Numbered from the stretch's first letter, positions 4,271 through 27,731 are shown. The stretch is 32,000 nucleotides of DNA from Candidatus Aenigmatarchaeota archaeon (GCA_015522745.1 WALQ01000028.1:2961-34960); one strand, 5' to 3'. The notes: a model not told the origin generated them from the letters alone. Numbers and translations: made by a program.

Positions 4271-4275
4271 TTACA

Positions 4276-6300: not shown

Positions 6301-6318
6301 AATAATTATTTGTCTCAG

Positions 6319-6337
6319 AAATTATAAATATAAAAAT
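6319..6337 (-). promoter_or_regulatory. TATA box for the platform/small-ORF/adhesin transcription unit
   Basis: The minus strand reads ACAATTTTTATATTTATAATTTC. Its centre is about 27 nt upstream of the ATG at 6300, and no SD lies between them. This is consistent with a leaderless archaeal transcript. Confidence 0.35.
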
Positions 6338-6355
6338 TGTAAAAAGAGAAGTGGA

Positions 6356-6775: not shown

Positions 6776-6806
6776 TTTTCATCCCTCCTGAATATATAAT
6801 AATATC

Positions 6807-7472: not shown

Positions 7473-7476
7473 TCAC

Positions 7477-8175: not shown

Positions 8176-8205
8176 AAATTAATTTGTCGTGATTGAATAA
8201 AAAGG

Positions 8206-10437: not shown

Positions 10438-10442
10438 AGAAA

Positions 10443-11231
10443 TTAAGATTTTTCTTCAGCCTTTTTGACAGAATCGCTCCACGGAACATCATCGCCGTAA
10501 ATGTGATGAAGCGTCTTCTTTTCAAGGTCCTCATGGCGCTTCTTGAGCGTTTCAACTATGTTGGACAGGTTCTGTATGTTGTCAACGAGCGTCGGAAGCA
10601 ATTGCTTGAACGATTTCTCGAGCGCGCCGACGCGAACTTCCAAATCCTCGACTTTCGTGTCAAGTTCGCTGAATTTCTCCTCCACTTCTTCCTTGCTCAC
10701 TTCTTCCTTCTTTTCCGTCTTTATGTTGGACAGGAGCTTTTTCGCGTCTTCCATCTCCCGCTCGACTTCCTTCATCCGCGCGTCTATCTTTTCCCACTTC
10801 TCGTTAACCATGCTTTGAATGATGTCCTCGACTATGTTGTTTATGTCCACAGTGTCCTCCACAGACTGCGAGAAATCCTGTGGGGGCTCTTGAATGTTTG
10901 ATTGTTGGGGTGATAAATTTTCAAAATTTTCTCCCTGCGGAAGAGAGGGCATTTGACCTTGTTGAGAGCCTTGATTGAATTGAGGATTAAACTGTTGATT
11001 TAATTGAGTGTTCTGTTGTGTACTTTCATTTGGTTGTTTTGGCGGTGATTTTCTTTTCACTGAAGATTTCATTGCCATAAGCATAGCCTTTTCTATTTCG
11101 TCGTAAGTATAACCCTCGGATTTTAAATGGCGTATTATATCCTTGTCTGGCATCCCACTTTGGCTCATCTTCACAACTTCATCTGTTGGAAGTGGGCGCT
11201 CTTCCTTTTTCTTTTTTGTCAAGAATAGCAT
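10443..11231 (-). CDS. hypothetical protein: small N-terminal helical domain, Q/N/P-rich linker, acidic coiled coil, 262 aa
   Basis: GGTGAT-TAA-ATG start coupled to the upstream gene. Low-complexity stretch QPNESTQQNTQLNQQFNPQFNQGSQQGQMPSLPQ. The C-terminal half is heptad-like and Glu/Lys-rich. Only 5 nt separate it from the ATPase gene. Confidence 0.65.
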   Translation of the reverse strand: MLFLTKKKKEERPLPTDEVVKMSQSGMPDKDIIRHLKSEGYTYDEIEKAMLMAMKSSVKRKSPPKQPNESTQQNTQLNQQFNPQFNQGSQQGQMPSLPQGENFENLSPQQSNIQEPPQDFSQSVEDTVDINNIVEDIIQSMVNEKWEKIDARMKEVEREMEDAKKLLSNIKTEKKEEVSKEEVEEKFSELDTKVEDLEVRVGALEKSFKQLLPTLVDNIQNLSNIVETLKKRHEDLEKKTLHHIYGDDVPWSDSVKKAEEKS

Positions 11232-11615
11232 TTAATCACCACCTTCGTATATCTTGTCCTTGATCTCCTCAAACTCCTTCCTCGTGACGTAGTTGTTGTT
11301 CAACGGATTGAGGATTTCAACCATTTTTTCTATTTCCTTTAAATCGGTTTTGCGCGCAGTTTTTGAGAGCTTGCCATCGATTTTTCTTATTGCATCCTCT
11401 ATTCTGTTTAGGCGGTCCTTTATCGATTCGACGTCGGACGACATGGACGCGATTTTTTTCTTTACATCCGAGAATTTTTTGTTCGACGTGTCTTCGAGAG
11501 TGGATATCTTCGATTCGTTCATATCCATTCGCTGTTCCAGAACGCGGAGCCGCCTGCTCTCTTCGTTGGCGCGCCTGACGAGCTCCTGAATTATGACATT
11601 CATTTCATTTACCAT
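11232..11615 (-). CDS. hypothetical coiled-coil protein, 127 aa
   Basis: Clean ORF. A TATA-like GTTTAAATATTTC lies about 30 nt upstream of the ATG at 11615. The sequence is dominated by heptad-like charged repeats (…LRVLEQRMDMNESKISTLED…IKDRLNRIEDAIRKIDGKL…). Confidence 0.65.
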   Translation of the reverse strand: MVNEMNVIIQELVRRANEESRRLRVLEQRMDMNESKISTLEDTSNKKFSDVKKKIASMSSDVESIKDRLNRIEDAIRKIDGKLSKTARKTDLKEIEKMVEILNPLNNNYVTRKEFEEIKDKIYEGGD

Positions 11616-11698
11616 ATAACATTAATTATTTTGAGAAATATTTAAACTTTCCAAAGAGAAAAAGGAAAAGAGCGCTATCCGTGATTGCTTCCTGAGTT

Positions 11699-12274
11699 TC
11701 ACTTTTTATTATCTCCCGTAGGATTGCTTTGTTTGCTCGTCACCATGAAGTAAAGCGCGATTGCTATTACGCCGAGGAACAAAATTATCCCCCATGTCAT
11801 CGGACTCAATGATATCGTCTGAGACGGTATTCGTATGTTCGCTGCTATGAGGAATATGTAAATCGCGACGCCGACGAAGAAGAGATTGACGAGGAACTTT
11901 GCAATTCCCTTGATGTTAAGCCCCATAAACTTATCCGGAAGCATTGTATCAAATAGCTTGTCCATTATCGTTCTGTCTTTTTCCGGAGCTCCGAGTATTA
12001 TCGCAAGTATCATGAGAAAGACGAGAACGCCTGCAGAAACCATTGTGTAGTCGCCCATCATATTCGTGAAGAACGACTCTATGTTCGTCCCGAATGGCGT
12101 GTACACCACGAGATACGACGCAACGACTATTCCGAGTATTGGCGGAACAGCCTTTGCCTTTTCCTTGAATATCTGGCCCGAGAAATAATACGTCAGCGCG
12201 AAAGCGAAAATCCACGGGAGTATGGTGTCGTAAAATCCGAGATTCCTAAGTGAAAGTATTATTTGCTCCATCAT
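11699..12274 (-). CDS. polytopic membrane protein, paralog family member A, 191 aa
   Basis: N-terminus MMEQIILSLRNLGFYDTILPWIFAFALTYY aligns with MSVLQIMIGNLRQLGFFDFILPWVFAFAITWG of the next gene. About 5 TM helices. SD AAGGAG upstream. Confidence 0.65.
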   Translation of the reverse strand: MMEQIILSLRNLGFYDTILPWIFAFALTYYFSGQIFKEKAKAVPPILGIVVASYLVVYTPFGTNIESFFTNMMGDYTMVSAGVLVFLMILAIILGAPEKDRTIMDKLFDTMLPDKFMGLNIKGIAKFLVNLFFVGVAIYIFLIAANIRIPSQTISLSPMTWGIILFLGVIAIALYFMVTSKQSNPTGDNKK

Positions 12275-12279
12275 TCATA

Positions 12280-12792
12280 TCAGCTCCTTGTCACGAACCA
12301 CACGACGATTCCAATCACAGCCAGCGCGAACACGACCGCGACCGCCGTCTGATTGAATGAAACCGCGTACATTGGGATGCTGTATCCCATGGCGAACATG
12401 AACAGGTAGATTGCGAGAATTATGATCAGAAGATAAAAGAAGAACTTGAGCCACTTGCCTATGCCCTCTCCTTTGATTGGTTCGAATATGTCGCTCGCCT
12501 TTACGCCTATGAGGCCGAGCAGAAGCACGCCAATGAGTATGCCGCCCATGACCATTGATGACTCCCCAAAGAGCTTCGTGAAGAACATTCCGATGTAGCC
12601 GTACGGCGTGTAGTTTGTCACGAAGAACGCGACCACAAGTGAAATTATGCCGGCGACGGCATCTTGATTGTTGAAGAGACCCGCCATCTTTATGGAGCCC
12701 CAAGTTATGGCAAATGCGAATACCCACGGGAGTATGAAGTCGAAGAATCCAAGCTGGCGAAGATTTCCAATCATTATTTGAAGCACGGACAT
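12280..12792 (-). CDS. polytopic membrane protein, paralog family member B, 170 aa
   Basis: AGGAGGT SD 8 nt upstream. Clear similarity to member A along the first ~90 aa (…YTP[FY]G…FFT…G[DE]…MV…G[VI]L…). Confidence 0.65.
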   Translation of the reverse strand: MSVLQIMIGNLRQLGFFDFILPWVFAFAITWGSIKMAGLFNNQDAVAGIISLVVAFFVTNYTPYGYIGMFFTKLFGESSMVMGGILIGVLLLGLIGVKASDIFEPIKGEGIGKWLKFFFYLLIIILAIYLFMFAMGYSIPMYAVSFNQTAVAVVFALAVIGIVVWFVTRS

Positions 12793-12831
12793 TTTTAACT
12801 ACCTCCTAATTAATTATGTCATCGGTTGTTT

Positions 12832-13845
12832 TTATAGTTTTTCTTTCACTCCATTTAGGATTTGTTCATACGATCCATCAAAATATTTTTTCACGCCCCC
12901 GTATATTGCATCATCTAAGAAATCTTCAAATCCAATACGAAGAAGAAGTTTAACAGGGAGATCGTATACTCTGTCATCCTCACGAAGAACATTCTTTATT
13001 TTATCGAAATAATAATTTTTAATCCTAAGTATCCTATTCGCAACGTCCATAGGTTTTTCAAACATTATCTCACGATGTGGATTATCGATATATATTATAT
13101 CTCCTTCTGGATCTGACTCGTAATTAATATCATGTTTTCCACTATGATAGTAATCCAACAATTCGTCAAAACTTTCTGCTTCTGTGTATGCCTCTCCGAT
13201 TGTTTGTGGGTCATGCGAGTCGGAGCCGACCGTTATGTGCTTTTTCTCACCCGAAAGTATTTTGAGCAGCGTCAGTGACTCGTTGGGGTGCGTCGTGTTG
13301 AGCTCAACCGCGTATGGAAATTCCTTTATGAGCTCTTCTGTGGCAGGTATGCCGTCTCTGTTCGTTTTCGCGAATGGATGGGCCCAAGACACGATGAGTT
13401 TGTGCTCCTTTTTGTAATCTTTGATGCGACTAAGAAACTCTTTCATATCGAGTCCGATAAGGCGCTTGTACATATCCGTGTCGAAACTGTCTGTATCCCC
13501 TATGACAAGTATGTGAGCAGTCTTGTTCTCTATCTTTACGCTGAACTCTCCACCATATGGTATGCCGAGATTATTCGCGAGTTCCCAACGCGCTTGGTAG
13601 TTGTTATCGTCGTGATCGAGGACGGGAACGATAATTCCTTTGTCTTTGTATTCTTTGACGTATTTTGGAAATATTATCGACTCAGATCCAATTGTGCCGG
13701 TTATGAACCAGTCTGGAAACGTCTTTTTGACGGCATAATACACAAGTGATGGGATAAATAGACGTTCGATACCAGTGAGAGCCTTGCGTGTATCGTGCTC
13801 TTTTGGATTTACATGAACGTGCAAATCAAATTTCATAGATTTCAA
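12832..13845 (-). CDS. PHP-domain metal-dependent phosphoesterase
   Basis: N-terminal FDLHVHV (H-x-H), internal WAHP, distal VGSDSHDP. This is the PHP (polymerase/histidinol-phosphatase) metal-ligand pattern. The TTG start at 13845 has GGAGGA 6 nt upstream; the ATG at 13836 is an alternative. Confidence 0.75.
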   Translation of the reverse strand: MKSMKFDLHVHVNPKEHDTRKALTGIERLFIPSLVYYAVKKTFPDWFITGTIGSESIIFPKYVKEYKDKGIIVPVLDHDDNNYQARWELANNLGIPYGGEFSVKIENKTAHILVIGDTDSFDTDMYKRLIGLDMKEFLSRIKDYKKEHKLIVSWAHPFAKTNRDGIPATEELIKEFPYAVELNTTHPNESLTLLKILSGEKKHITVGSDSHDPQTIGEAYTEAESFDELLDYYHSGKHDINYESDPEGDIIYIDNPHREIMFEKPMDVANRILRIKNYYFDKIKNVLREDDRVYDLPVKLLLRIGFEDFLDDAIYGGVKKYFDGSYEQILNGVKEKL

Positions 13846-13881
13846 TTGATGTCCTCCATTTAAAAAACTTTTCTCATTCGT

Positions 13882-14343
13882 TTATTGACTAACATTACCC
13901 CCACCGAACATATTCATTTTTGCGGCAAGAAGGAAAAGAACTGCAACAAGCGTGAATCCCACTATGAATGTTATCGTCGTTGAGTTCGGAATGTGTATGG
14001 AATTTCTTATTGTTGGAGATGCGAGACCTATAAAAATGAGAAAGACTATCGCTCCGACGACTCCGTAATCCGCTTTGCTGCCGCTCCCAATCGAGTTTAT
14101 AAACTTCCATATGAAACCGACTATGAAAAGTATGACGAACACGATGGTCGCCACGGGCATATACTTCCACAACATATCCACAACGCTTTCATTGACGATT
14201 GACATTATGGCGATTGTAATTGCTATTATCGCGTTGACCGCCTTGTTTTTGAAGACACCACTGAGCTCAATTGAGCCGTACACAACGGCAAATGAGAATA
14301 CGAAAGGGACAATATAATACCAAATATCCGATGGAACATACAT
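13882..14343 (-). CDS. polytopic membrane protein, distant member C of the same paralog family, 153 aa
   Basis: MYVPSDIWYYIVPFVFSFAVVYGSIELSGVFKNKAVNAIIAI parallels …ILPW[IV]FAFA[LI]T…G…F.N…AV.GII of members A and B. About 4 TM helices. Confidence 0.6.
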   Translation of the reverse strand: MYVPSDIWYYIVPFVFSFAVVYGSIELSGVFKNKAVNAIIAITIAIMSIVNESVVDMLWKYMPVATIVFVILFIVGFIWKFINSIGSGSKADYGVVGAIVFLIFIGLASPTIRNSIHIPNSTTITFIVGFTLVAVLFLLAAKMNMFGGGNVSQ

Positions 14344-14354
14344 TTTTAATCATC

Positions 14355-14951
14355 TCACGTTCTCATTCTCCTCACAAGCCTTGCACGCTGGTCAACGAGT
14401 TTCCTAATTTGCATATCTATATCATCCATCTTTCTCTGAAGGTTGTTTATCCTGGTTCTTAGTGAACTTATTACTCCAGGGTTCGATGCACTTGAGAGTG
14501 AAGCAGTTGCGACGTTTATTCGGTTCTCAATTGAACTTTTCATTCCATAAAGACCTTCCAATCTTGTGTCAATTGTTTTTATCGACCTGTAAACGCGGTC
14601 AGAAGAGTTCGGAAGTTTTATCTTCGTGCCCGGGCTTATGAACATTCCGAATATGAACAGGAAGCCTGAAACGAGTATGAGTATGAGATACCATATCTGG
14701 GAGAGCGTCACGAAAAATCCATATAGACCAATATCTATTGAAAAAATCATTCCTCCAACAACTACGAGAAATCGTATGCCCTTATGGTTGTTCAGCGGTT
14801 CAGTTGCTGCGTAGAAGAATATAAGCGACACTATGCTTGGGAGAAGAATGAGATTAATGAGCCTATCGTAAACGCTGTAGTACGATGACACCTGTCCCAT
14901 AGGTATCTTCAGGATTTCCGTGTAGATTATTCTCTCGAGCTCGGACAACAT
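14355..14951 (-). CDS. membrane protein with a C-terminal cytoplasmic coiled coil, 198 aa
   Basis: AGTGAT-TTAA-ATG start. Three or four TM helices in aa 30-115. Then …IDTRLEGLYGMKSSIENRINVA…LRTRINNLQRKMDDIDMQIRKLVDQRARLVRRMRT. Confidence 0.6.
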   Translation of the reverse strand: MLSELERIIYTEILKIPMGQVSSYYSVYDRLINLILLPSIVSLIFFYAATEPLNNHKGIRFLVVVGGMIFSIDIGLYGFFVTLSQIWYLILILVSGFLFIFGMFISPGTKIKLPNSSDRVYRSIKTIDTRLEGLYGMKSSIENRINVATASLSSASNPGVISSLRTRINNLQRKMDDIDMQIRKLVDQRARLVRRMRT

Positions 14952-14960
14952 TTAAATCAC

Positions 14961-16310
14961 TTACTTGTGCGTGTATATGCCATGCTTAGACAATAGATTA
15001 TTCACGTCTCCGTTGTACTTGTCTTTAACGAATTTTTCAAACGTGTCTATGTTTACATATTTTGCCGCTGTTTTTATATTTGGCTTTTTGTATTGACCTT
15101 TTTTAGCTCCAACTTCTTCAGGGTTCTCTTTGAGCTCATCACGTATCCATGTTAGATATCCCTCCATCGCCTCTTTCGCGCCTTTTAGATATTCTCCATT
15201 TTCCGTGACTTTTGCCATAGTATTACGGAGCTCATCCAAATTGTTTTCGTATGCGTCCTTGTTGTTGGGATCAGCTATTCTTTTTCTTTCCAAGTATCTG
15301 TTCGCCAAATACGCTATGGAGGCCGTGGCCGCAAAATCTCCGTTTTCTTTTTTCTTTTCCTGCTTTACATTATTGCTTATGTAAGCGTTTATGGTATCTG
15401 CCAATTTTTCTGTTTTGTTATTGGTAATGTTATACGTAGTAGAGCTCTTTTCATCCTCTTTTTTCAATTCATTGATTTCATTAATTATGCTTGTGACTAT
15501 CTCCTTGTATGCGCCATCATCGATGACATTCGAGTTTTCTGAATTGGCACCGCTTCTGCTGTATGACCCTCCGCTTTCTGCCGATGCGTTCCCACCGTTG
15601 ATGGTTGAACTTTGATTTGATCTTCCTCCTGATGCATAAGAGTCTCCTCCTTCACTTTTGGACGAGTTGTTTGAAGAGTTCTTTGACGAATTGTTTGCGT
15701 TTGATGAGTTGTTTGCCGAGTTGGTTGATGAGTTGTTAGAATTTCCTCCGTATCCACTTCCACCAGAGCCACCATTGGCAGTTACATTTGGATTCGCTGT
15801 TGCACTTCCTCCGTATCCGCTGCCACCTTCACCACCGGTGGCGCTAACTTTTCCTACACTTCCACCAGAGGCATTTACATTAACCCCTTTTTCTAAAAAT
15901 TTTTCTAAAAAGTGTTCTAAGTTAACATAGGTATTATTATTGATAACAATTCCGCTACCCTGATTTCCTGTTCCGCTTCCTCCGCCGCCGTTTCCGCTTC
16001 CTCCGTCTCCGCCGCCATCATTTCCTCCTCCGTCTCCGCCGCCATCATTTCCTCCTCCGTCTCCGCCGCCATCATTTCCTCCTCCGTCTCCACCACCATC
16101 GTTTCCGCCGCCTCCGCCGGAATGTCCAGGTGGTGGTTGATACGTTGGCATATTAGGAACTTCGTGCCTTTCTCCTGTTTCTTTCTCAAATAAATTCCCT
16201 ATGGTTTGGGGTATTTGGTCCACCGGAACTTCTGAGGATATATATTCTTTCTTAAATGGGTTATTTTCCTTTTTATTATTGTTATCATTTCCCTCTGGCA
16301 TGCTTATCAC
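14961..16310 (-). CDS. low-complexity Gly/Asn/Asp- and Ser/Asn-rich protein with a globular Lys/Glu-rich C-terminal domain, 449 aa
   Basis: Long ORF with no N-terminal hydrophobic segment. It contains PPPGHSGGGG(GNDGGGDGG)x4, GG.GGSGYGG x2, and NSNNSSTNSANNSSNANNSSKNSSNNSS, followed by about 170 aa of ordinary composition. The track start at 16310 is GTG; an ATG lies at 16301. A TATA box sits about 27 nt upstream. Confidence 0.7.
   Translation of the reverse strand: MISMPEGNDNNNKKENNPFKKEYISSEVPVDQIPQTIGNLFEKETGERHEVPNMPTYQPPPGHSGGGGGNDGGGDGGGNDGGGDGGGNDGGGDGGGNDGGGDGGSGNGGGGSGTGNQGSGIVINNNTYVNLEHFLEKFLEKGVNVNASGGSVGKVSATGGEGGSGYGGSATANPNVTANGGSGGSGYGGNSNNSSTNSANNSSNANNSSKNSSNNSSKSEGGDSYASGGRSNQSSTINGGNASAESGGSYSRSGANSENSNVIDDGAYKEIVTSIINEINELKKEDEKSSTTYNITNNKTEKLADTINAYISNNVKQEKKKENGDFAATASIAYLANRYLERKRIADPNNKDAYENNLDELRNTMAKVTENGEYLKGAKEAMEGYLTWIRDELKENPEEVGAKKGQYKKPNIKTAAKYVNIDTFEKFVKDKYNGDVNNLLSKHGIYTHK
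15974..16108. repeat. 27-bp tandem repeat inside the CDS: 3 perfect copies plus 2 degenerate flanking copies
   Basis: ctccgtctccgccgccatcatttcctc is identical at 16001-16027, 16028-16054 and 16055-16081. Diverged copies lie at 15974-16000 and 16082-16108. The repeat encodes GGGNDGGGD on the minus strand. Confidence 0.9.
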
Positions 16311-20044: not shown

Positions 20045-20896
20045 TTACAATTTCAATTTTTTCTTTATTTCTTTGGCAACACTATCACTGACGTCTATTG
20101 CAGATATTTCTGATTGTATTGTGTTCGTCGCGACGAGCTCATCAACATTTATTGCTCTCCAGTCCCCGACAAGCACGGGATGAACAACACACCCTACTAG
20201 CTTTTCGACACCGCGCGATCTTAGAAGGTCCGCTGCCATCTTAAGCGTTCCACCACTTGCAAGTATGTCGTCAATGAGTATTGCATTTTTTGGCATCTCT
20301 CCATCATAGTCAAATTTTATAGATATCGATCCCGTTGACGGATTTCTAGTTTTTTCCATGCATATGTAATCATACCCGAGCTTTTTGGCCACCTTTTTCA
20401 CAAGTTTTGTCGAGCCCTTGTCTGGACCTATGATGGTTCCACCTATTTTTTTCAGATAATTGGAAAGGTCATCTGAAACGTCAATGTTAATTACGCCATC
20501 CATCTCATTGTGGAGCTCAACTGAGAAAATGTTGTCTGCCCAAACTTTCAGAATTTCTTTCACGAATTTTGATGATACAGGTTCACCAGATATTATGACA
20601 CGGTCTTGCCTACTGTATGGAAAATAAGGAAGAACAAGATTTATTTTATTTGCTCCGTATGATTTCAGGTTTCTTATCGTGATCAGGATTTCCATGAGAT
20701 AGCTGTTTGGATTGTACGGCCTGGACGCTGTCATTGCGAGCACAACATCTTTTCCTATGATTTTGTCAGGAACTGAGAGTCGTGGGCAAACCTCACCATC
20801 AGGAAACGTTCTGCGTTTGACATCTATGAAATCAAGGCCAAGCTTCTCCGAAAGAGATTGAGCAAATGAATCTCCGGCGACAATCATTTTTTCCAT
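20045..20896 (-). CDS. prs: ribose-phosphate pyrophosphokinase (PRPP synthetase)
   Basis: …FPDGEVCPRL…, …LVLPYFPYSRQDRV…, and the PRPP-binding loop ILIDDILASGGTL. 283 aa. Confidence 0.9.
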   Translation of the reverse strand: MEKMIVAGDSFAQSLSEKLGLDFIDVKRRTFPDGEVCPRLSVPDKIIGKDVVLAMTASRPYNPNSYLMEILITIRNLKSYGANKINLVLPYFPYSRQDRVIISGEPVSSKFVKEILKVWADNIFSVELHNEMDGVINIDVSDDLSNYLKKIGGTIIGPDKGSTKLVKKVAKKLGYDYICMEKTRNPSTGSISIKFDYDGEMPKNAILIDDILASGGTLKMAADLLRSRGVEKLVGCVVHPVLVGDWRAINVDELVATNTIQSEISAIDVSDSVAKEIKKKLKL

Positions 20897-21519
20897 AATC
20901 CCACCACAAACCTAAATGATATACTTATTATTCTCCACAAAACCTTAAAGAAGTCAACGTATATCGATATTGCAGCTGTTATGTAGTCCTCGTCATTGTA
21001 ATCACGTATTATCCTTGATGTGTCCATTAGAATCATAATCAAGAACAATATTATAGTTAAGATATCTGCAATCAAGTCGTACAGGCGATGAACGAGGAAT
21101 ATGTTTATAAGTGATGCCACGATTAAACCTATGTTTATTGCTACGAGCATCCCCCCCAAAGAGCGAAAGTCCCTCTTTGTTGCCATTGAGTAAAGTGAGA
21201 GCGACATTATGAAAAGTGAGCTCACGAGCATTGATTCGATGAATATTATCTGATTATACCCAAACAGATGATATATGAGTGGAAACAATATCATTCCACT
21301 CAATATTGAAAATGAGAAGAACAGGAATGCATTCCACGGTTTTCTTCTTTTCAACCACACGAACATGAAGAAAATTAGAATGTAAATCCCATACGATATG
21401 AGAGATTCTATTTCTCCTGTATATCTTATGAGCGCAGAAATTGATGCACCTATGGCTATCATGAACACAGATATTCCAAACAACGGAAGTACTTTTGTCC
21501 TAAATTCATCCTCTTTCAT
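20884..21519 (-). CDS. BAX inhibitor-1/YccA-like 7-TM membrane protein
   Basis: 211 aa, about 7 TM helices. The C-terminal …DYNDEDYITAAISIYVDFFKVLWRIISI resembles the BI-1 family C-terminal signature (…A..LYLD..N.F..LL.I). Overlaps the prs start by 13 nt. Confidence 0.55.
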   Translation of the reverse strand: MKEDEFRTKVLPLFGISVFMIAIGASISALIRYTGEIESLISYGIYILIFFMFVWLKRRKPWNAFLFFSFSILSGMILFPLIYHLFGYNQIIFIESMLVSSLFIMSLSLYSMATKRDFRSLGGMLVAINIGLIVASLINIFLVHRLYDLIADILTIILFLIMILMDTSRIIRDYNDEDYITAAISIYVDFFKVLWRIISISFRFVVGLWKK

Positions 21520-21520
21520 T

Positions 21521-22129
21521 TTATCTCCTCAACTTGTAATACATTTTTGGTTCCTCTCCAGAAAGTATGAGTGGTATCTTTGGAATGTGCGCCACGAACA
21601 TTGGAACGCACGCTGCTAGTGCAACGTACACGTAAAACTTATCAAAACCGAGAATGAAGAGTGCGAATGGTGTCAGAAGCGCTGCGAGAACTTGCCCGAG
21701 AGAAAATATGCGCGTCGGAACGAATCCCATGAACCATATGACAATCCACACCAGGGCAATTTTCCAATTCACAGTTAGCGCTATGCCAAGTGATGTTGCT
21801 ATTCCGCGACCAGAACGAAATCGCTCGAACATCGACCAATTGTGTCCGCAAACAACGAGCAGCGACGAAATTATGATGGCTGAGTTCACGTTTCCCCCTG
21901 TGACACAAGCAATGTGCATGGCTGTTGCGACTGCGAGAGCTCCCTTTCCTGCGTCAAGTACAAGCACAACAAGTGCCTTTTTTATCGATTTCGTTGCGCG
22001 AAATGTATTCATTGTTCCAATATTTCCAGAGCCGACTTTCTTTAAATCTATTCCTGAGATTATTTTTGCAAATGGAATTGACCCGAGCATGTAAGACAAA
22101 ATAGCTATCAACAACATCATCATTTCCAC
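21521..22129 (-). CDS. PlsY-family (acyl-phosphate:glycerol-3-phosphate acyltransferase-like) membrane protein, paralog 3
   Basis: YMLGSIPFAKII…VGSGNIGTMNTFR…DAGKGALAV…CGHNWSMFERFRSGRGIATSLG. All three PlsY motif blocks are recognisable but substituted. Confidence 0.7.
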   Translation of the reverse strand: MEMMMLLIAILSYMLGSIPFAKIISGIDLKKVGSGNIGTMNTFRATKSIKKALVVLVLDAGKGALAVATAMHIACVTGGNVNSAIIISSLLVVCGHNWSMFERFRSGRGIATSLGIALTVNWKIALVWIVIWFMGFVPTRIFSLGQVLAALLTPFALFILGFDKFYVYVALAACVPMFVAHIPKIPLILSGEEPKMYYKLRR

Positions 22130-22674
22130 CGTTCAGATTTTATTTTGTAATATCGCTTTAAATATCCTATTGACAGTGCTGTTGCCGCGCCGTAAAACGC
22201 TGAAAATGTTGAATTTATGAACATGGTTGATGCGCTTAAAATTGCTATTGCGACGAGCCCCGAAATGCAATTCCCAAGTTTCTTTGGCATAAACTTATAG
22301 AAAATAAACGCGAGAGTGTACCTTGTCGCATAAACGAAAAATGCGAATATCGGATTCTCGTAGAGTATTATTCCAAACGATGTGAGTTGACCCATCCCAC
22401 CCTCAAAATTAAGATACGGAGAAAAAACGTGACCGATAACCGCGAAAAACGCGGACACGAACGGATGGCCGAACAATGCGACCGGTACAATTCCTTTCAT
22501 CAAGTCGAGCAAAAATGCGAGGGCGACTTTCAATTTTGAGTGCTCATGCGAGAGGAAGTTGTAAAATCCAACATTCTTGTCACCCACGCTTCTTAAATCA
22601 TGCGATGCAAACAATTGGGCAAACGGTATTCCCCCAATGAGATAGGCGAAAACAACAGATGCAACGACGTTCAC
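22120..22674 (-). CDS. PlsY-family membrane protein, divergent paralog 2
   Basis: YLIGGIPFAQLF…VGDKNVGFYNFLS…DLMKGIVPV…IGHVFSPYLNFEGGMGQLTSFG. Motif 1 (GSGNxGATN) and the GGKG of motif 3 are eroded. Overlaps paralog 3 by 10 nt. Confidence 0.6.
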   Translation of the reverse strand: MNVVASVVFAYLIGGIPFAQLFASHDLRSVGDKNVGFYNFLSHEHSKLKVALAFLLDLMKGIVPVALFGHPFVSAFFAVIGHVFSPYLNFEGGMGQLTSFGIILYENPIFAFFVYATRYTLAFIFYKFMPKKLGNCISGLVAIAILSASTMFINSTFSAFYGAATALSIGYLKRYYKIKSERWK

Positions 22675-22675
22675 T

Positions 22676-23251
22676 TCATCGACCCCCGATGCGCAACTCC
22701 CTACTTTCTACAAGGCGTCGTATATTCTCCCTGTGTGTGTAAAAAATCAGTGCTGACATCACAATCGCCGCCAATGCGCTTCCAACGTGGCCGAAAATGG
22801 CAAGGAGCATGGGCGCCCAAATGGATATGGACAGACTATTGACTGAGACGATTCTCGTTTCCACTATGCCCACGACCGCCATGGCGAGAAGCAAGAGTGC
22901 TATTTTCCAATCAACAAATAGCAAGAATCCGAAAAACGTCGATACACCCTTTCCTGCGCGAAATTTCAGAAACATGGAGAATACGTGACCAATCATTGCG
23001 AACATTCCGGCAATCGGAACAAATTGAGTGCTGTATATGCTTGCTATGTAGCACGCCAAATAAGCTTTAGTAACGTCCAGTGCTCCGCACAAAAGCGCGT
23101 AGTATGGTCCGAGAGCACGGGACACGTTCGTCGCGCCAACATTGCCGCTACCAATCTCCCTTATGTCAATTCCTTTCAGCTTTGGGATTATGTACGAGAA
23201 CGGGACAGATCCTATGAGATAAGACAATATTGATATTTCAACAGCATTCAT
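22676..23251 (-). CDS. plsY: PlsY-family acyl-phosphate:glycerol-3-phosphate acyltransferase, canonical paralog 1
   Basis: YLIGSVPFSYIIPKLKGIDIREIGSGNVGATNVSRALG…IGHVFSMFLKFRAGKGVSTFFG closely matches the bacterial PlsY motifs. Confidence 0.8.
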   Translation of the reverse strand: MNAVEISILSYLIGSVPFSYIIPKLKGIDIREIGSGNVGATNVSRALGPYYALLCGALDVTKAYLACYIASIYSTQFVPIAGMFAMIGHVFSMFLKFRAGKGVSTFFGFLLFVDWKIALLLLAMAVVGIVETRIVSVNSLSISIWAPMLLAIFGHVGSALAAIVMSALIFYTHRENIRRLVESRELRIGGR

Positions 23252-23254
23252 GCA

Positions 23255-24061
23255 TCACACCATGTGGAATGAGACTATGAGGCATCTCGGACCCAAATGC
23301 GCCATTAGAGCCGGTCCGAGCGGCTCTATGTAGCTTTCATTTACATTGAATTGCTCCTTTATTTTTTTCATGAGCTCATCCGCCTTTTCGCGGACGCTGC
23401 CATGAACAACCATGACGTTTATCTTCTCGTCGGTCACGTACGTCCCGAGCTTTTTTACGAGTCGCTCTATGGGGTCTCCCCTGAGCGACGATGTGGATTT
23501 TATTTCTCCGTCCACGAGCTCGAACATGGGTTTAAGTGATAGCGCACGGGCAATCAGTCCCTTGGCGGCAGGAATGCGTCCGCTCTTTACAGCATTCTTC
23601 AACGTGTCGAGAACGCCGAACGTTTTCATCTTGTCACGAAGCTCAATAACCTTCTCAACATCCTTGAGCTGAGACGCTTTCATTGCGAGATAACCGAGCA
23701 TGAACGCTCCCGTTTTGCTGTCTATGACCGTGACCCTTTTGTCGTGCGTGCGCTCGAAAATCTTCTTGGCGAGAAGGGCGGAGTTGTAGATACCGCTCAG
23801 CTTCGATGAAATCGTGATGACTGTTACATCGTCGTTCGCACGCTCGTATGCGTCCAAAAACGCCTTTGGGCTTGGCTGAGATGTTTTAACTTCGGCGCGT
23901 TCTATGTATTCCATTATTTGCGAGCGCACACTTTCGTCATTGAGCTTGTCGGATGTTATCTCACTGTCGCCATAGTAAACTATTATGGGAACTACGTCTA
24001 TACCGTACTTCTCGGGATTCTGTAAATCAGATGTTCCATCAGTTATGATTTTCATTTTCAA
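23255..24061 (-). CDS. DegV-family fatty-acid-binding protein (FakB-like)
   Basis: 268 aa. MKIITDGTSDL…YGIDVVPIIVY…TSQPSP…ITISSKLSGIYNSA… is the characteristic DegV N-terminal pattern. Overlaps the upstream Dak2 gene by 4 nt (ATGA). Confidence 0.8.
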   Translation of the reverse strand: MKMKIITDGTSDLQNPEKYGIDVVPIIVYYGDSEITSDKLNDESVRSQIMEYIERAEVKTSQPSPKAFLDAYERANDDVTVITISSKLSGIYNSALLAKKIFERTHDKRVTVIDSKTGAFMLGYLAMKASQLKDVEKVIELRDKMKTFGVLDTLKNAVKSGRIPAAKGLIARALSLKPMFELVDGEIKSTSSLRGDPIERLVKKLGTYVTDEKINVMVVHGSVREKADELMKKIKEQFNVNESYIEPLGPALMAHLGPRCLIVSFHMV

Positions 24062-24984
24062 TCACGCGAGAAAAACATGTGCCTGTGGAGTATTTTCATG
24101 TCATCAACTTTCATTGCCTTGATTATGCCGTGGGAAGAGCACACGCGCTGAACTTTCCACGGTTCGTTTGTGTGGACGTGGACTTTTACGTAGTGTTCGA
24201 GCTTTCCGACCTCCACAGAGTCGCCGAGTTTCTTGAGCTCATTGAACAGACCTTCAGACTGGCCTATAAAAAGAATTTCCGTGCAGTACCTGAATTTTAT
24301 GCGCTCATTCCTCTTCACTGGGGTCTCGACGTCGACTTTCGGTGGGTGCATGTTGAAGGCAACCATCCAACCTTCGAGTATGTAGAGGAATCCAAGACCA
24401 CCCGCATCGACGACACCATAATCCTCAAGCTCTTTCAATTGGTCCTTTGTACGTTTCAGCGATTCACGAGCTCCGAACACAGCGTTCTTTATGACGTCGA
24501 GCACGCTTTCTCCGTGGCGGACGGATTCCGACGCTTCCTTTACAGCGTCCTTTATGACGGTCAGAATTGTTCCCTCCTTTGGCGAGCTCAGCGCCTTGTA
24601 TGCGTATTCCTTCGCGCATTTCAGCGCCTCGATAAAGTCACGGACGCTCAGTTTTTTCTTTCCTTTGGACTTCTCATAAAGGCCGGCAAAAAACTGAGAT
24701 ATTATCATGCCCGAGTTCCCGCGAGAATTCATGAGTGAGCTCATTGCGATTGTTTCTAGTACTTTGTCCGCCTCATTGACGTCGATTTCGCGTATCTCAT
24801 CAGACACGGACGACAACGTTGAGAACAAGTTTGTTCCCGTATCACCATCGGGGACAGGGAAGACATTTATTCTGTTTATCATGCCCTTATGGCTCTTTAT
24901 GTACTCGACCGATTTCAAGAACATCCTCTTGATGTCCTCTCCATCGAGCTCGCGAACTGCTTGCATAATTTTAATTGAGCTCAT
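24058..24984 (-). CDS. Dak2/DhaL-domain protein (short FakA/YloV-like kinase subunit)
   Basis: INVFPVPDGDTGTNL and RGNSGMIISQFFAG are the Dak2 nucleotide/Mg-binding signatures. They are followed by DAGGLGF…YCTEILF…VHVHTNEP, as in the YloV/FakA middle region. At 308 aa it is much shorter than the bacterial ~550 aa. Confidence 0.8.
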   Translation of the reverse strand: MSSIKIMQAVRELDGEDIKRMFLKSVEYIKSHKGMINRINVFPVPDGDTGTNLFSTLSSVSDEIREIDVNEADKVLETIAMSSLMNSRGNSGMIISQFFAGLYEKSKGKKKLSVRDFIEALKCAKEYAYKALSSPKEGTILTVIKDAVKEASESVRHGESVLDVIKNAVFGARESLKRTKDQLKELEDYGVVDAGGLGFLYILEGWMVAFNMHPPKVDVETPVKRNERIKFRYCTEILFIGQSEGLFNELKKLGDSVEVGKLEHYVKVHVHTNEPWKVQRVCSSHGIIKAMKVDDMKILHRHMFFSRD

Positions 24985-25031
24985 TTGCTTAAATAAATTT
25001 TTTTGCGCCGTTTATTCGACGCAAGACGAAA

Positions 25032-25658
25032 TTACTTACTCCGAGTTCCCATAAATCCGGAATAAATAAATTTCAGTGATTTTGTTAGTTCTTTATCGTC
25101 CGTTAACGGAGTCAATTTTATGGTCGTTTCGTTTGTTCCCATTGAACTCCCCGTCTTTTGATAAAGTATGCCAAGCACTGTGTCTGGGTTCGCTATGACG
25201 AGGAATTTGGGCAAAATACTTTTAATTTTATCTTCTGACAGGTTCATCAATTTTTCTATTTCGCCACCTTTCCTTAATTCGATTCCATCTTTTTTGAGGC
25301 CTCCGATGAAATAACTGTAAACAATTTTTGTCACTCTGTTGATAGGCGCTTTCGAATTCTCCTCACTGTTTGGAACATAATTGTCAATGTTCTTTATTAT
25401 CTCTTTCCCCTTTTTTGACAGAGACGGTGTTGCCTCAATGATGTAATATCCTTTGTCGCCAACTATTCTGAAATTCTGCTTCATAATCTCAACGTTGCTG
25501 TATGCTCCCTCCAGCACGTCGAGTACGGCCTTGTTCACTTTTATCTCTTCCGGGTGACCAGAACCAGTTAGAAACAATTCCCCATTTTTAAAAACTCTGT
25601 AATTCGGGAGTAATTTTCTCAATTCATTTACGTACTTTACAATTCTCTCTATGTTCAT
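25032..25658 (-). CDS. hypothetical soluble protein, 208 aa
   Basis: Clean ORF on the same strand, 47 nt upstream of the Dak2 gene. No motif was recognised. Confidence 0.55.
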   Translation of the reverse strand: MNIERIVKYVNELRKLLPNYRVFKNGELFLTGSGHPEEIKVNKAVLDVLEGAYSNVEIMKQNFRIVGDKGYYIIEATPSLSKKGKEIIKNIDNYVPNSEENSKAPINRVTKIVYSYFIGGLKKDGIELRKGGEIEKLMNLSEDKIKSILPKFLVIANPDTVLGILYQKTGSSMGTNETTIKLTPLTDDKELTKSLKFIYSGFMGTRSK

Positions 25659-27482: not shown

Positions 27483-27486
27483 GAAG

Positions 27487-27731
27487 TGGGGTCAGAGGGA
27501 TTCGAACCCCCGTCAGCAGGTTTCTCCTGTCATCGCTCGTTTCCGAGCTCAGCGCTCCAGAAAAGCCCTTTAGAAAAGGGCTTTAACCTAAAACTTTCTG
27601 AACCCTTTTCTTTTCAAAGAAAAGCGTTCTATCGGAAAAGAAAGTTTGAAAAACTTTCTTTCAACTCCCTTCTTTCAGCGGAAGGGAGCTCTCTGGAGCC
27701 TACCGTCCTAACCAGGCTAGACTATGACCCC
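27487..27731 (-). tRNA. tRNA-Trp (anticodon CCA) interrupted by a 171-nt intron at the canonical 37/38 position
   Basis: The minus strand reads GGGGTCA-TA-GTCT-AGCCTGGTTA-GGAC-G-GTAGG-CTCCAG / intron 27692..27522 / A-CCTGC-TGAC-GGGGG-TTCGAAT-CCCTC-TGACCCC-A. All four stems pair, with U-G wobbles. The T-loop is TTCGAAT and the 3' CCA is not encoded. Exons are 27693..27731 and 27487..27521. Confidence 0.85.
27522..27692 (-). ncRNA. tRNA-Trp intron carrying a box D'/C' (K-turn-like) unit, a C34-directed guide, and four additional perfect hairpins
   Basis: CTGA (27552..27549), hairpin GCTCG-GAAA-CGAGC, then GATGA (27534..27530). The 12 nt 5' of CTGA (CTTTTCTGGAGC-G) are complementary to G31-G37 plus the first intron nucleotides. 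Guide position 5 upstream of CTGA pairs with C34. Confidence 0.6.

What the first reader, a model, noticed from the sequence alone, without database searches (positions are those of the whole stretch)
21521..24984. Contiguous Dak2(FakA-like)-DegV(FakB-like)-3x PlsY cluster: a complete bacterial-type fatty-acid kinase to acyl-phosphate to glycerol-phosphate acylation module on an archaeal contig
**What is seen.** Five co-directional genes abut or overlap:
- 24058..24984, a Dak2 domain protein with INVFPVPDGDTGTNL and RGNSG motifs.
- 23255..24061, a DegV protein that overlaps the Dak2 gene by 4 nt.
- Three PlsY-family genes at 22676..23251, 22120..22674 and 21521..22129.

**Established knowledge.** In Firmicutes the Dak2-domain kinase FakA (YloV) phosphorylates a fatty acid held by a DegV protein (FakB). 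The resulting acyl-phosphate is the dedicated donor for PlsY, which acylates sn-glycerol-3-phosphate. Here all three roles sit in one apparent operon.

**Why the context matters.** The same contig carries PCNA, a BHB-intron tRNA and class III signal peptides, so it is archaeal. Archaeal membranes are normally isoprenoid ethers on glycerol-1-phosphate.

**Inference.** This looks like a scavenging route that would let the organism build ester-type lysophospholipids from exogenous (host?) fatty acids. Alternatively, it is a repurposed version with a different acceptor.

**An unusual detail.** The Dak2 protein is only 308 aa. It lacks the C-terminal third of bacterial FakA.
Basis: partly seen in the sequence, partly recalled or inferred. 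Interest (0 to 1): 0.78.

Follow-up and report, generated by a model that had tools for sequence, protein, structure and literature searches.

The report
Archaeal fatty-acid kinase–PlsY lipid operon
A small DPANN-like archaeon carries a conserved operon with a stripped-down two-gene fatty-acid kinase and three different PlsY acyltransferases, which could explain how some archaea obtain the acyl-phosphate needed to build bacterial-style ester lipids from scavenged fatty acids.

Summary
Five co-directional, abutting genes at 21521-24984 (minus strand) match Dak2+FakA middle domain, DegV and three PlsY (G3P_acyltransf) proteins, all above Pfam cut-offs. The contig is archaeal: archaeal PCNA nearest DPANN Aenigmatarchaeota, intron-bearing tRNA-Trp, FlaI-type ATPase. 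The block is not chimeric. It was assembled independently at least three times, and synteny holds in relatives down to 54% identity.

- **The 308-aa kinase is a natural FakA_NL.** All catalytic residues are kept. An engineered S. aureus FakA_NL is known to be active.
- **The DegV is a true FakB-type carrier.** It has the Thr/Ser/Arg/His ligand site and is not a split-off FakA_C.
- **The three PlsYs are old, non-equivalent paralogs.** One is canonical. One has an altered phosphate clamp (T41M/K104R/S142Q/N180K). One has lost the glycerol-phosphate clamp but keeps the acyl-phosphate site.

All genes are under purifying selection. Natural Dak2-DegV and PlsY-Dak2-DegV fusions support the functional link. 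PlsY homologs in archaeal MAGs were already published; an archaeal acyl-phosphate source was not found in the searchable literature. Biochemistry remains inferred. Verdict: new variant of a known pathway, of moderately high interest.

The parts
24058..24984 (-). Natural FakA_NL: Dak2 (ATP/Mg) domain plus FakA middle (Zn/dimerisation) domain, with no FakA_C. 308 aa from ATG 24984, or 302 aa from ATG 24966.
   Evidence: Pfam Dak2 128 bits plus FakA-like_M 57 bits. phmmer to S. suis FakA 7W7H, E=2.8e-45, covering chain residues 24-321 only. Catalytic N40/D46/D48 and C234/H269/H271 match S. aureus N32/D38/D40 and C240/H282/H284 (PMC9136124) and are invariant in 17 short forms. dN/dS 0.057.
23255..24061 (-). 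FakB-type DegV fatty-acid-binding protein. 268 aa from TTG 24061 (overlapping the FakA stop), or 266 aa from ATG 24055.
   Evidence: Pfam DegV 174.8 bits; TIGR00762 196.9 bits against a cut-off of 99.7. Best PDB hit is S. aureus FakB2 4X9X, E=2.2e-30. The Thr (KTSQP), Ser (LSG), Arg (SGRI) and His (AHLGP) ligand-site residues are present. Bacterial FakA_C domains keep only the aligned Thr and lack the Ser motif and the His. dN/dS 0.050.
22676..23251 (-). PlsY-a: canonical acyl-phosphate:glycerol-phosphate acyltransferase.
   Evidence: Pfam 158.8 bits. TIGR00023 134.9 bits, just under the 137.2 cut-off. 40% identity to Aquifex PlsY 5XJ5, E=1e-33. S35, T41, R45, H92, K104, S142, H177 and N180 are all conserved; the only deviation is G102A. 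dN/dS 0.07-0.20.
22120..22674 (-). PlsY-b: divergent, lineage-restricted PlsY paralog lacking the glycerol-phosphate clamp.
   Evidence: Pfam 81.1 bits. S35D, T41Y (Thr in the two orthologs), R45S/K, K104M/I, H177Y and N180R, plus a 6-residue insertion. H92 and the G-G-x-G loop are kept. The pattern is conserved in three lineages. Only 4 relatives among 5.8 billion proteins in the word-seeded search. dN/dS 0.060.
21521..22129 (-). PlsY-c: variant-clamp PlsY paralog.
   Evidence: Pfam 117.6 bits. T41M, K104R, S142Q and N180K are identical in three lineages. It clusters with a wider variant-clamp subfamily, about 19 of the top 150 representatives. dN/dS 0.085.
24989..24997 (-). TATA-box-like element (tttatttaa) preceded by an A-rich BRE-like run, about 27 nt upstream of ATG 24966. 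Candidate archaeal promoter giving a leaderless operon mRNA.
   Evidence: Read directly from the sequence. No sigma-70 enrichment and no minus-strand terminator-like site within the cluster. Motif-level evidence only.
20045..21519 (-). Bax1-I/YccA-family membrane protein (20884-21519) and PRPP synthase (20045-20896). Co-directional and abutting or overlapping, so probably the same transcription unit. No functional link to the lipid genes is shown.
   Evidence: Pfam. The same position is conserved in L001, L004, L092 and L097.

Best explanation
The block is an archaeal operon for activating free fatty acids and transferring them to lipid acceptors without ACP or CoA.

Step 1 (inferred from residues and homology): the DegV protein, a FakB-type carrier, binds a free fatty acid.

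Step 2 (inferred; supported by published enzymology of a truncated FakA): a minimal kinase, FakA_NL, phosphorylates the carboxylate using ATP-Mg to give acyl-phosphate. FakA_NL consists of the Dak2 ATP domain plus the Cys-His-His middle domain. With no FakA_C docking domain, the stand-alone DegV most likely docks directly on the Dak2 face that binds the DegV-fold FakA_C in bacterial FakA, much as DhaK docks on DhaL.

Step 3 (inferred): PlsY-a, whose acyl-phosphate and glycerol-phosphate sites are intact, makes a 1-acyl-glycerol-phosphate. The enantiomer (G3P or G1P) is undetermined.

Step 4 (speculative): PlsY-c (altered phosphate clamp) and PlsY-b (no clamp, acyl-phosphate hole kept) use the same donor on different acceptors.

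Physiologically, this would let a small-genome DPANN-type archaeon put scavenged fatty acids into membrane lipids. It would also supply the acyl-phosphate source that archaeal PlsY homologs, which lack PlsX, have been missing.
For: - Family assignments and residue-level conservation are given under 'parts'.
- S. aureus FakA_NL lacking FakA_C is an active kinase with apparent Km for FakB1 of 0.99 vs 0.09 uM (PMC9136124). True short forms all end 0-11 residues after the window protein's C-terminus.
- Dak2 residues that contact FakA_C in S. suis (L75, M76, R79, N81, V84, I85, E179; PMC10848957) are conserved in the window protein as L84, M85, R88, N90, M93, I94 and D188.
- Rosetta-stone fusions exist: P0124 is Dak2-FakA_M-DegV (609 aa), and L047 from a Saccharibacteria MAG is PlsY-Dak2-FakA_M-DegV in one 863-aa ORF.
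- The short-FakA/DegV/PlsY operon recurs in three separate lineages: the window family, L088, and L089. L089 lies beside an archaeal RPA and HerA-Mre11-Rad50.
- All five genes are under purifying selection, with dN/dS 0.05-0.20 against 0.025 for PCNA.
- The locus was assembled independently three times and its composition is native to the contig.
- In 10 of 80 bacterial loci a full-length fakA is followed directly by plsY, so the pairing is a known functional theme.
- PlsY accepts both G1P and G3P in vitro (PMC13400652).
Against: - No biochemistry exists for any archaeal member.
- None of the proteins reaches NCBIfam equivalog cut-offs.
- The fourth zinc ligand of S. suis FakA_M (H226) lies in a segment absent from the window protein.
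- In the L004/L005 lineage the cluster has no DegV gene, so either the carrier is encoded elsewhere or it is dispensable.
- Only 32-38 kb of the genome is visible. It is unknown whether the organism has G1P/G3P dehydrogenases, PlsC/CdsA, ACP or the archaeal ether-lipid genes.
- The conserved Dak2 surface residues overlap the nucleotide-binding RGNSG motif and may be conserved for that reason alone.
- The cultured Lokiarchaeon, from a group that carries PlsY homologs, has so far shown only isoprenoid lipids (PMC13400652, PMC9385802).
Confidence: 0.62

Rival explanations
1. Plain reading of the first reader: a canonical bacterial Fak-PlsY pathway in which the three PlsYs are redundant or chain-length-specialised G3P acyltransferase isozymes.
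For: All three pass the Pfam PlsY threshold. From my own recollection, not checked here, some bacteria carry several plsY paralogs.
Against: In Aquifex PlsY, alanine substitutions of the phosphate-clamp residues S35, R45, K104 and N180 cost more than 92% of activity, and H177 could not be replaced by any residue tried (PMC5700162). PlsY-b replaces S35, R45, K104, H177 and N180. PlsY-c replaces T41, K104, S142 and N180. Both patterns are conserved across three lineages. The paralogs are only 25-35% identical to each other and group with different subfamilies.
Confidence: 0.12
2. The chemistry is the same but the purpose differs. The module detoxifies or recycles free fatty acids, or remodels host-derived lipids, rather than building bulk membrane.
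For: The Fak system in Firmicutes also handles endogenous and toxic fatty acids (PMC9136124, PMC12408189). DPANN are thought to take lipids from hosts (PMC7242380). No other lipid-synthesis gene lies in the window.
Against: Three dedicated acyltransferases under strong purifying selection suggest more than detoxification. Sequence alone cannot separate this reading from the main one.
Confidence: 0.15
3. PlsY-b is a non-catalytic pseudoenzyme or subunit that associates with PlsY-a or PlsY-c, rather than an enzyme with a new acceptor.
For: Most acceptor-binding residues are lost. It has the lowest family score (81 bits) and is lineage-restricted.
Against: H92 and the G-G-x-G acyl-phosphate loop are retained and dN/dS is 0.06. 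PlsY is described as a monomer (PMC10146087).
Confidence: 0.1
4. The DegV/FakA_NL pair activates a carboxylate other than a straight-chain fatty acid (for example an isoprenoid acid), and the PlsY paralogs transfer that group.
For: The context is archaeal, and DegV ligand specificity varies among FakB isoforms (PMC10146087).
Against: The ligand-site Thr/Ser/Arg/His are the same as in palmitate- and oleate-binding DegV proteins. There is no positive evidence for another ligand.
Confidence: 0.06
5. Bacterial contamination or chimeric assembly placed a bacterial lipid block on an archaeal contig.
For: The nearest full-length homologs are bacterial at 38-40% identity.
Against: Identical gene order occurs in three independent assemblies. 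Synteny with PCNA, the RPA3-like gene and MgtE is conserved in lineages with 54-93% FakA identity. GC and GC3 lie within the contig range. A TATA-like promoter is present. No close bacterial donor exists.
Confidence: 0.01

Closest known systems
Firmicute fatty acid kinase FakA/FakB (S. aureus, S. suis; PDB 7W7H, 7RM7, 4X9X)
   Same: Dak2 ATP domain with the Asn/Asp/Asp Mg ligands. Middle domain with Cys-His-His. A separate DegV carrier with the Thr/Ser/Arg/His ligand site. Product expected to be acyl-phosphate.
   Different: The kinase naturally lacks the roughly 220-aa FakA_C domain that docks FakB, and the segment carrying the fourth zinc ligand is absent. Kinase and carrier genes are translationally coupled in one operon with the acyltransferases. 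The host is an archaeon. Scores fall below the NCBIfam FakA and FakB1 equivalog cut-offs.
Engineered S. aureus FakA_NL (Subramanian et al. 2022, PMC9136124)
   Same: Same domain content (N plus L/M), ending at the end of the dimerisation helix. That construct is an active dimeric kinase.
   Different: It is a laboratory truncation with 11-fold weaker apparent affinity for FakB. The window protein is a naturally evolved, conserved form with its own cognate DegV.
Bacterial PlsY (Aquifex aeolicus 5XJ5; S. pneumoniae)
   Same: PlsY-a shares 40% identity and every substrate-contacting side chain. All three paralogs keep H92 and the glycine loop that forms the acyl-phosphate 'phosphate hole'.
   Different: Three non-equivalent paralogs sit in tandem. 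PlsY-c has T41M/K104R/S142Q/N180K. PlsY-b has S35D/K104M/H177Y/N180R plus an insertion. No PlsX is seen nearby.
PlsY/PlsC homologs reported in archaeal MAGs (MGII/III, Asgard, DPANN; Villanueva 2017, Coleman 2019 PMC6431249)
   Same: Bacterial-type acyltransferase genes in uncultured archaea. Their function is unresolved, and only the PlsY part of the PlsX/PlsY pair is present.
   Different: Here PlsY is physically coupled to a candidate acyl-phosphate-generating system. Within the searchable library, those papers do not describe Fak/DegV partners or the paralog triad.
DhaK-DhaL dihydroxyacetone kinase
   Same: A Dak2/DhaL nucleotide subunit working on a substrate held by a separate EDD-fold (DegV/DhaK-related) subunit, which is the two-protein logic proposed here.
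   Different: The substrate is a fatty-acid carboxylate rather than dihydroxyacetone. The FakA middle domain is present. Scores against the DhaL models are far lower (36 bits against 285 bits for YloV).

Membership tests
FakA / YloV (fatty acid kinase catalytic subunit) | Dak2 domain with Mg/ATP ligands (S. aureus Asn32, Asp38, Asp40) | tested here: met
   Pfam Dak2 128 bits. N40, D46 and D48 have identical spacing and are invariant in 17 short forms. Residue roles come from PMC9136124.
FakA / YloV (fatty acid kinase catalytic subunit) | Middle domain with catalytic/zinc Cys-His-His (C240, H282, H284) and the dimerisation helix | tested here: met
   FakA-like_M 57 bits. C234, H269 and H271 are invariant. 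The alignment to 7W7H runs to chain residue 321. The fourth ligand, S. suis H226, lies in a segment absent here.
FakA / YloV (fatty acid kinase catalytic subunit) | C-terminal DegV-like FakA_C domain that binds FakB | tested here: not met
   No FakA-like_C hit. The protein ends at residue 308. It scores below the cut-offs of TIGR03599 (285.5 vs 396.1) and NF038248 (180 vs 975).
FakA / YloV (fatty acid kinase catalytic subunit) | ATP-dependent phosphorylation of FakB-bound fatty acid | not testable with these tools
   Needs an enzyme assay. The analogous truncated S. aureus protein is active (PMC9136124).
FakB / DegV fatty-acid-binding protein | DegV (EDD) fold family membership | tested here: met
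   Pfam DegV 174.8 bits. TIGR00762 196.9 bits against a cut-off of 99.7. 25 DegV/FakB structures hit, the best being FakB2 4X9X at E=2.2e-30.
FakB / DegV fatty-acid-binding protein | Carboxylate-site residues, including the conserved Arg that FakA_C lacks | tested here: met
   T, S, R and H align with FakB2 and palmitate-bound TM841. Three bacterial FakA_C domains keep only the aligned Thr, lack the Ser motif and the His, and only one has an Arg at the aligned position. The Arg role comes from PMC9136124 and PMC10848957. The roles of T, S and H come from my own knowledge of DegV structures.
FakB / DegV fatty-acid-binding protein | Equivalog-level identity to FakB1 | tested here: not met
   NF038249 scores 110.3 bits against a cut-off of 350.
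PlsY (acyl-phosphate:G3P acyltransferase) | PF02660 family membership | tested here: met
   158.8, 81.1 and 117.6 bits for paralogs a, b and c against a cut-off of 24.1.
PlsY (acyl-phosphate:G3P acyltransferase) | Acyl-phosphate site: H92, T41 and the G102-G103-K104-G105 loop | tested here: inconclusive
   H92 and the glycine loop are present in all three. T41 is kept in a and in the L001/L004 orthologs of b, but is Met in c and Tyr in the window's b. G102 is Ala in a.
PlsY (acyl-phosphate:G3P acyltransferase) | G3P pocket: S35, R45, K104 and N180 (phosphate clamp) plus S142 and H177 (2-OH) | tested here: not met
   Met by PlsY-a (6 of 6). PlsY-c keeps S35, R45 and H177 but has K104R, S142Q and N180K. 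PlsY-b keeps none. Only PlsY-a should be filed as a G3P-type PlsY.
PlsY (acyl-phosphate:G3P acyltransferase) | NCBIfam equivalog TIGR00023 cut-off of 137.2 bits | tested here: not met
   a scores 134.9 (marginal), c scores 118.7 and b scores 62.3.
Archaeal (DPANN-like) genome context | Archaeal information-processing markers on the same contig | tested here: met
   PCNA's best named relatives are Aenigmatarchaeota at 43-44% identity. Its best PDB hits are archaeal clamps at E about 1e-35. Also present: an RPA3-like OB protein, a GspE2/FlaI-like ATPase, and tRNA-Trp with a 171-nt intron at position 37/38. The exact phylum is not established.

The most novel reading that the evidence does not exclude
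The operon encodes a complete ACP- and CoA-independent route to diacyl or hybrid lipids in an archaeon. In this reading, PlsY-c is an acyl-phosphate acyltransferase tuned to a different phosphorylated acceptor, either the archaeal enantiomer sn-glycerol-1-phosphate or lysophosphatidate (which would replace PlsC). PlsY-b acylates an acceptor that is not bound through the canonical glycerol-phosphate clamp, for example a lyso-ether lipid or a glycolipid scavenged from a host. That would define two new enzyme specificities in the PlsY family and show that a living archaeon builds membranes that cross the 'lipid divide'.
Probability: 0.2. Interest if true: 0.85.

Novelty: new variant of a known kind. 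Interest (0 to 1): 0.62.

Why it matters
Bacterial-type PlsY and PlsC genes in uncultured archaea have fed the debate on the 'lipid divide' and on the origin of eukaryotic membranes. Their function is still called unresolved, in part because PlsX, the usual maker of PlsY's acyl-phosphate donor, is missing (PMC9385802, PMC13400652). The same puzzle was raised for CPR bacteria (PMC7242380).

This operon, together with the natural fusions found alongside it, points to a minimal fatty acid kinase as the missing donor-generating step. That turns the question into a direct experiment: express five small genes and assay them with G1P, G3P and other acceptors.

It also provides a natural experiment on FakA mechanism, namely a kinase that works without the FakB-docking domain. 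Finally, it identifies two PlsY subtypes with re-modelled acceptor pockets whose substrates are unknown.

Tried and rejected
- **Taxon from species-representative genomes.** Two genome-contig scans returned only bacterial full-length FakA at 40% identity or less.
- **Cluster-member and accession look-ups.** These gave no organism names or papers, so the phylum rests on PCNA similarity alone.
- **Exact-sequence look-up of the 308-aa FakA.** It failed because public gene calls start at the later ATG. The source contig was found instead through PlsY-b.
- **Are all short FakA forms one clade?** A neighbour-joining tree with 100 bootstraps gave 100% support for the window family but 0% for an all-short clade. 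One loss of FakA_C versus several losses stays unresolved. No maximum-likelihood software was available.
- **Apparent frameshift of PlsY-a in the sister contig L097.** I considered it as evidence of decay and rejected it. It is caused by a 10-N scaffold gap, and both halves are intact.
- **Upstream 208-aa ORF (25032-25658).** I considered it as an operon member. It has no Pfam or NCBIfam hit and no significant similarity to the gene at the same position in L001 (E=0.03). It was left out of the module.
- **'DegV is a split-off FakA_C'.** Rejected on HMM scores (175 vs 46 bits) and ligand-site residues.
- **Sigma-70 promoter scan.** No enrichment, 16 sites against 11.9 +/- 4.4 expected.
- **Rfam scans at gathering and E-value thresholds.** They did not detect the tRNA. 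A first PlsY bootstrap script timed out, and only the point-estimate tree was used.
- **Structure prediction.** Not run. Sequence matches to solved FakA, FakB and PlsY structures were already decisive for fold, and the tools do not model complexes or expose coordinates.

Full report
**1. Observation**

The five ORFs are present on the minus strand at exactly the coordinates given.

Pfam assigns the following:
- 24058-24984: Dak2 (128.1 bits) plus the FakA middle domain (57.0 bits), with no FakA C-terminal domain.
- 23255-24061: DegV (174.8 bits), with a weaker FakA-like_C match (46 bits).
- The three downstream genes: G3P_acyltransf/PlsY, at 158.8, 81.1 and 117.6 bits.

NCBIfam gives the same picture. 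The kinase matches YloV/FakA models over their first ~300 positions only. The carrier passes the DegV domain model. All three membrane proteins hit the PlsY equivalog below its cut-off, with PlsY-a only marginally below (134.9 against 137.2).

The genes overlap or are separated by 1-3 nt. Two further co-directional genes follow at a 1-nt gap and a 13-nt overlap: a Bax1-I/YccA-family membrane protein and PRPP synthase.

A tttatttaa element preceded by an A-rich run lies about 27 nt upstream of the second in-frame ATG (24966). This is the geometry of an archaeal BRE/TATA promoter with a leaderless mRNA. There is no terminator-like site on the coding strand within the cluster and no excess of sigma-70-like sites.

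**2. Whose DNA is it, and is the join real?**

Several features mark the contig as archaeal:
- A PCNA whose closest named relatives are Candidatus Aenigmatarchaeota (DPANN) at only 43-44% identity, above a small unnamed family at 77-95%.
- PCNA's best solved relatives are archaeal sliding clamps at E about 1e-35, against about 1e-10 to 1e-17 for eukaryotic PCNA.
- An RPA3-like OB-fold protein and a GspE2/FlaI-type ATPase.
- A pilin-like ORF with a class III-type N-terminus.
- A tRNA-Trp with a 171-nt intron at position 37/38. ARAGORN finds it only when introns are allowed, and default ARAGORN and Rfam missed it.
- Many ORFs with no Pfam family.

The locus is not an assembly chimera:
- A protein identical to PlsY-b lies on an ENA scaffold of 38,001 bp, on NCBI GCA_027007995.1 (JALTDY010000074.1), and on a Logan assembly of SRR10312495. 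Gene order is the same in all three.
- A sister strain (L097, FakA 92% identical) and two more distant lineages keep the kinase and three PlsY genes between MgtE/TrkA_C on one side and Bax1-I/PRPP synthase on the other. Those lineages are L001-L003 (FakA 65%) and L004/L005 (54%). PCNA follows PRPP synthase wherever the contig extends that far.
- GC and GC3 of the five genes fall inside the spread of the other genes on the contig.

**3. The kinase is a natural FakA_NL**

The protein aligns with S. suis FakA (7W7H) over chain residues 24-321 at E=2.8e-45, and stops there.

Published work on S. aureus FakA defines three domains. It also shows that a construct lacking FakA_C (FakA_NL) is still an active dimeric kinase, with apparent Km for FakB1 raised from 0.09 to 0.99 uM (PMC9136124). 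The catalytic residues named there are Asn32, Asp38, Asp40, Cys240, His282 and His284. They correspond to N40, D46, D48, C234, H269 and H271 here, and all are invariant in an alignment of 17 short homologs.

The database holds a set of such short proteins that all terminate within 0-11 residues of the window protein's C-terminus. Other 'short' hits extend 17-77 residues further and look like truncated full-length proteins. Contexts show that the short form is typically archaeal:
- L089 lies next to RPA and HerA-Mre11-Rad50.
- L090 lies next to a RIO1 kinase.
- One source labels another short form as Kariarchaeaceae, an Asgard family.

A distance tree supports the window family at 100% but does not resolve whether all short forms share one origin.

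**4. The DegV is a FakB-type carrier, not a detached FakA_C**

It scores 175 bits on DegV against 46 on FakA_C. Its best solved relative is S. aureus FakB2 (4X9X, E=2.2e-30), followed by palmitate-bound TM841.

The Thr of KTSQP, the Ser of LSG, the Arg of SGRI and the His of AHLGP align with the corresponding residues of FakB2 and TM841. Three bacterial FakA_C domains keep only the aligned Thr. They lack the Ser motif and the His, and only one of the three has an Arg at the aligned position. The literature singles out the Arg as essential for Fak activity and as absent from FakA_C (PMC9136124, PMC10848957).

In S. suis, the DegV-fold FakA_C packs against the Dak2 domain of the partner chain through L75, M76, R79, N81, V84, I85 and E179 (PMC10848957). 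These positions are L84, M85, R88, N90, M93, I94 and D188 in the window protein. I therefore propose that the free DegV docks directly on this face, as DhaK does on DhaL. This step is inference, and part of that surface is also the nucleotide-binding motif.

**5. Fusions and controls**

Two natural fusions tie the components together:
- P0124 (609 aa) is Dak2-FakA_M-DegV, with a full DegV domain at 248 bits.
- A Saccharibacteria MAG (L047) encodes one 863-aa ORF with PlsY, Dak2, FakA_M and DegV domains.

As a control, I scanned 80 bacterial fakA loci with HMMs built from my own alignments:
- All 80 kinases are full length.
- In 10 of 80, a single plsY lies directly downstream.
- None has two or more plsY genes.
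- None has an intact free DegV beside fakA. The two short DegV-like hits overlap the fakA 3' end and look like fragments of its C domain.

So fakA-plsY linkage has bacterial precedent. The combination of short kinase, free DegV and several PlsYs is particular to the archaeal-type loci. It also occurs in L088 (two PlsYs, one lacking motif 3) and in L089 (one canonical PlsY).

**6. The three PlsYs are not equivalent**

I used the residue roles established for Aquifex PlsY (PMC5700162):
- G3P phosphate clamp: S35, R45, K104, N180.
- G3P 2-OH contacts: S142, H177.
- Acyl-phosphate contacts: T41, H92 and the 102-107 loop.

I aligned the window paralogs with their orthologs in L001 and L004, and then with 150 representatives from an exhaustive search.

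| Paralog | Acceptor and donor-site residues | Distribution |
|---|---|---|
| PlsY-a | All eight side chains kept; G102 is Ala | Groups with canonical PlsY |
| PlsY-c | T41M, K104R, S142Q, N180K in all three lineages | Same correlated pattern (T41M/L, S142Q/N/A/T, N180K/R) in about 19 of the top 150 representatives, including one on a 3.3-Mb bacterial contig |
| PlsY-b | S35D, T41Y (window only; Thr in orthologs), R45S/K, K104M/I, H177Y, N180R, plus an insertion; H92 and the glycine loop kept | Only four relatives found among 5.8 billion proteins by the word-seeded search |

The paralogs are 25-35% identical to one another. That is less than each shares with outside PlsYs (about 40% for a and c), and each forms its own clade. 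They are therefore old, distinct subtypes rather than recent duplicates.

dN/dS against the sister strain:

| Gene | dN/dS |
|---|---|
| FakA_NL | 0.057 |
| DegV | 0.050 |
| PlsY-a | 0.07-0.20 |
| PlsY-b | 0.060 |
| PlsY-c | 0.085 |
| PCNA (for comparison) | 0.025 |

dS is high (0.6-1.5), so the ratios are approximate, but all genes are clearly constrained. An apparent split of PlsY-a in the sister contig is an artefact of a 10-N scaffold gap.

**7. Mechanism proposed**

- **Shown:** domain content, conserved catalytic and ligand residues, operon-like packing, conservation, purifying selection, and the fusions.
- **Inferred:**
  - DegV binds a free fatty acid.
  - FakA_NL phosphorylates it.
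  - PlsY-a transfers the acyl group to a glycerol-phosphate.
  - The enantiomer is open, because bacterial PlsY accepts both G1P and G3P in vitro (PMC13400652).
- **Speculative:** PlsY-c and PlsY-b use acyl-phosphate on other acceptors. Candidates are G1P, lysophosphatidate (a PlsC substitute that needs no ACP or CoA), or host-derived lyso-lipids.

**8. Relation to what is known**

PlsY and PlsC homologs in archaeal MAGs (MGII/III, Asgard, DPANN) are published (PMC6431249). Reviews state that only the PlsY half of PlsX/PlsY is present and that the function 'remains to be elucidated' (PMC9385802, PMC13400652). The same gap was noted for CPR bacteria (PMC7242380).

Full-text searches found no paper linking Fak, DegV or Dak2 to archaea or DPANN. 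The library lacks most subscription journals, so this is absence within what could be searched.

The finding is best described as a new variant of the known Fak-PlsY pathway. It has a natural domain-minimal kinase, sits in an archaeal host, and carries an unexplained triad of acyltransferases.

**9. Limits**

- There is no biochemistry.
- The phylum assignment rests on one marker.
- Only about 38 kb of the genome is visible, so the presence of G1P/G3P dehydrogenases, ether-lipid genes, PlsC/CdsA, ACP or PlsX is unknown.
- The L004 lineage lacks DegV in the cluster.
- The trees are distance-based.

Noticed in passing
window 27486-27731 (minus strand): tRNA-Trp(CCA) with a 171-nt intron at position 37/38. 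ARAGORN finds it only with introns allowed; default ARAGORN and the Rfam tRNA model miss it. Weak C/D-box snoRNA-like Rfam hits and strong hairpins lie inside the intron. From my own knowledge, archaeal tRNA-Trp introns can encode box C/D guide RNAs.
   Followed up: partly
L047 2541-5132 (Candidatus Saccharibacteria MAG CAYHAF010000017.1): One 863-aa ORF fuses PlsY, Dak2, FakA_M and DegV domains (Pfam 106.9, 107.1, 34.9 and 149.7 bits). Its middle domain lacks the catalytic Cys. This may answer the published question of how PlsX-less CPR bacteria obtain acyl-phosphate.
   Followed up: partly
L028, L029, L041, L046, L054, L058, L064, L065, L084 (bacterial loci): In 10 of 80 bacterial loci a single plsY lies immediately downstream of full-length fakA. 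The nine loci listed are Wenzhouxiangella, other Gammaproteobacteria, Lysobacterales and Draconibacterium; the tenth is the L047 fusion listed separately.
   Followed up: no
L095 6001-6645 (3.3-Mb bacterial contig): A member of the variant-clamp PlsY subfamily (T41L, S142Q, N180R) sits beside an LppX/LprAFG-family lipoprotein gene and an MFS transporter gene. This suggests the subtype is an uncharacterised acyltransferase class also present in bacteria.
   Followed up: no
window 20045-21519 (minus strand): A Bax1-I/YccA-family membrane protein gene and the PRPP synthase gene abut or overlap the last PlsY gene. They keep that position in every related contig examined, so they are probably co-transcribed, for no obvious functional reason.
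   Followed up: partly
L004 2069-4928 and L005: In this related lineage (FakA 54% identical) the short kinase is followed directly by the three PlsY genes, with no DegV gene in the cluster.
   Followed up: no
window 6356-16310 (minus strand): A pilus- or archaellum-like locus. It holds a pilin-like ORF (6356-6775, N-terminus MSKKG|VSLPISTIVILSIAVLVL), a 743-aa GspE2/FlaI-type ATPase (8206-10437), and three small paralogous membrane ORFs (11699-12274, 12280-12792, 13882-14343) with similar N-terminal LGF.D.ILPW.FAFA-type segments.
   Followed up: no
window 25032-25658 (minus strand): A 208-aa ORF lies 47 nt upstream of the kinase gene on the same strand. It has no family hit, is conserved in the sister strain (84% identity, dN/dS 0.23), and is not detectably similar to the gene at the same position in L001.
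   Followed up: partly
window 71-7472: A run of large ORFs (444, 288, 534, 674, 139 and 221 aa) has no Pfam match at all. This fits a poorly sampled lineage.
   Followed up: no
L088 8917-9981: The DegV partner of this distant short-FakA cluster is 354 aa, matches the DegV model in two stretches, and has Phe in place of the ligand-site His.
   Followed up: no
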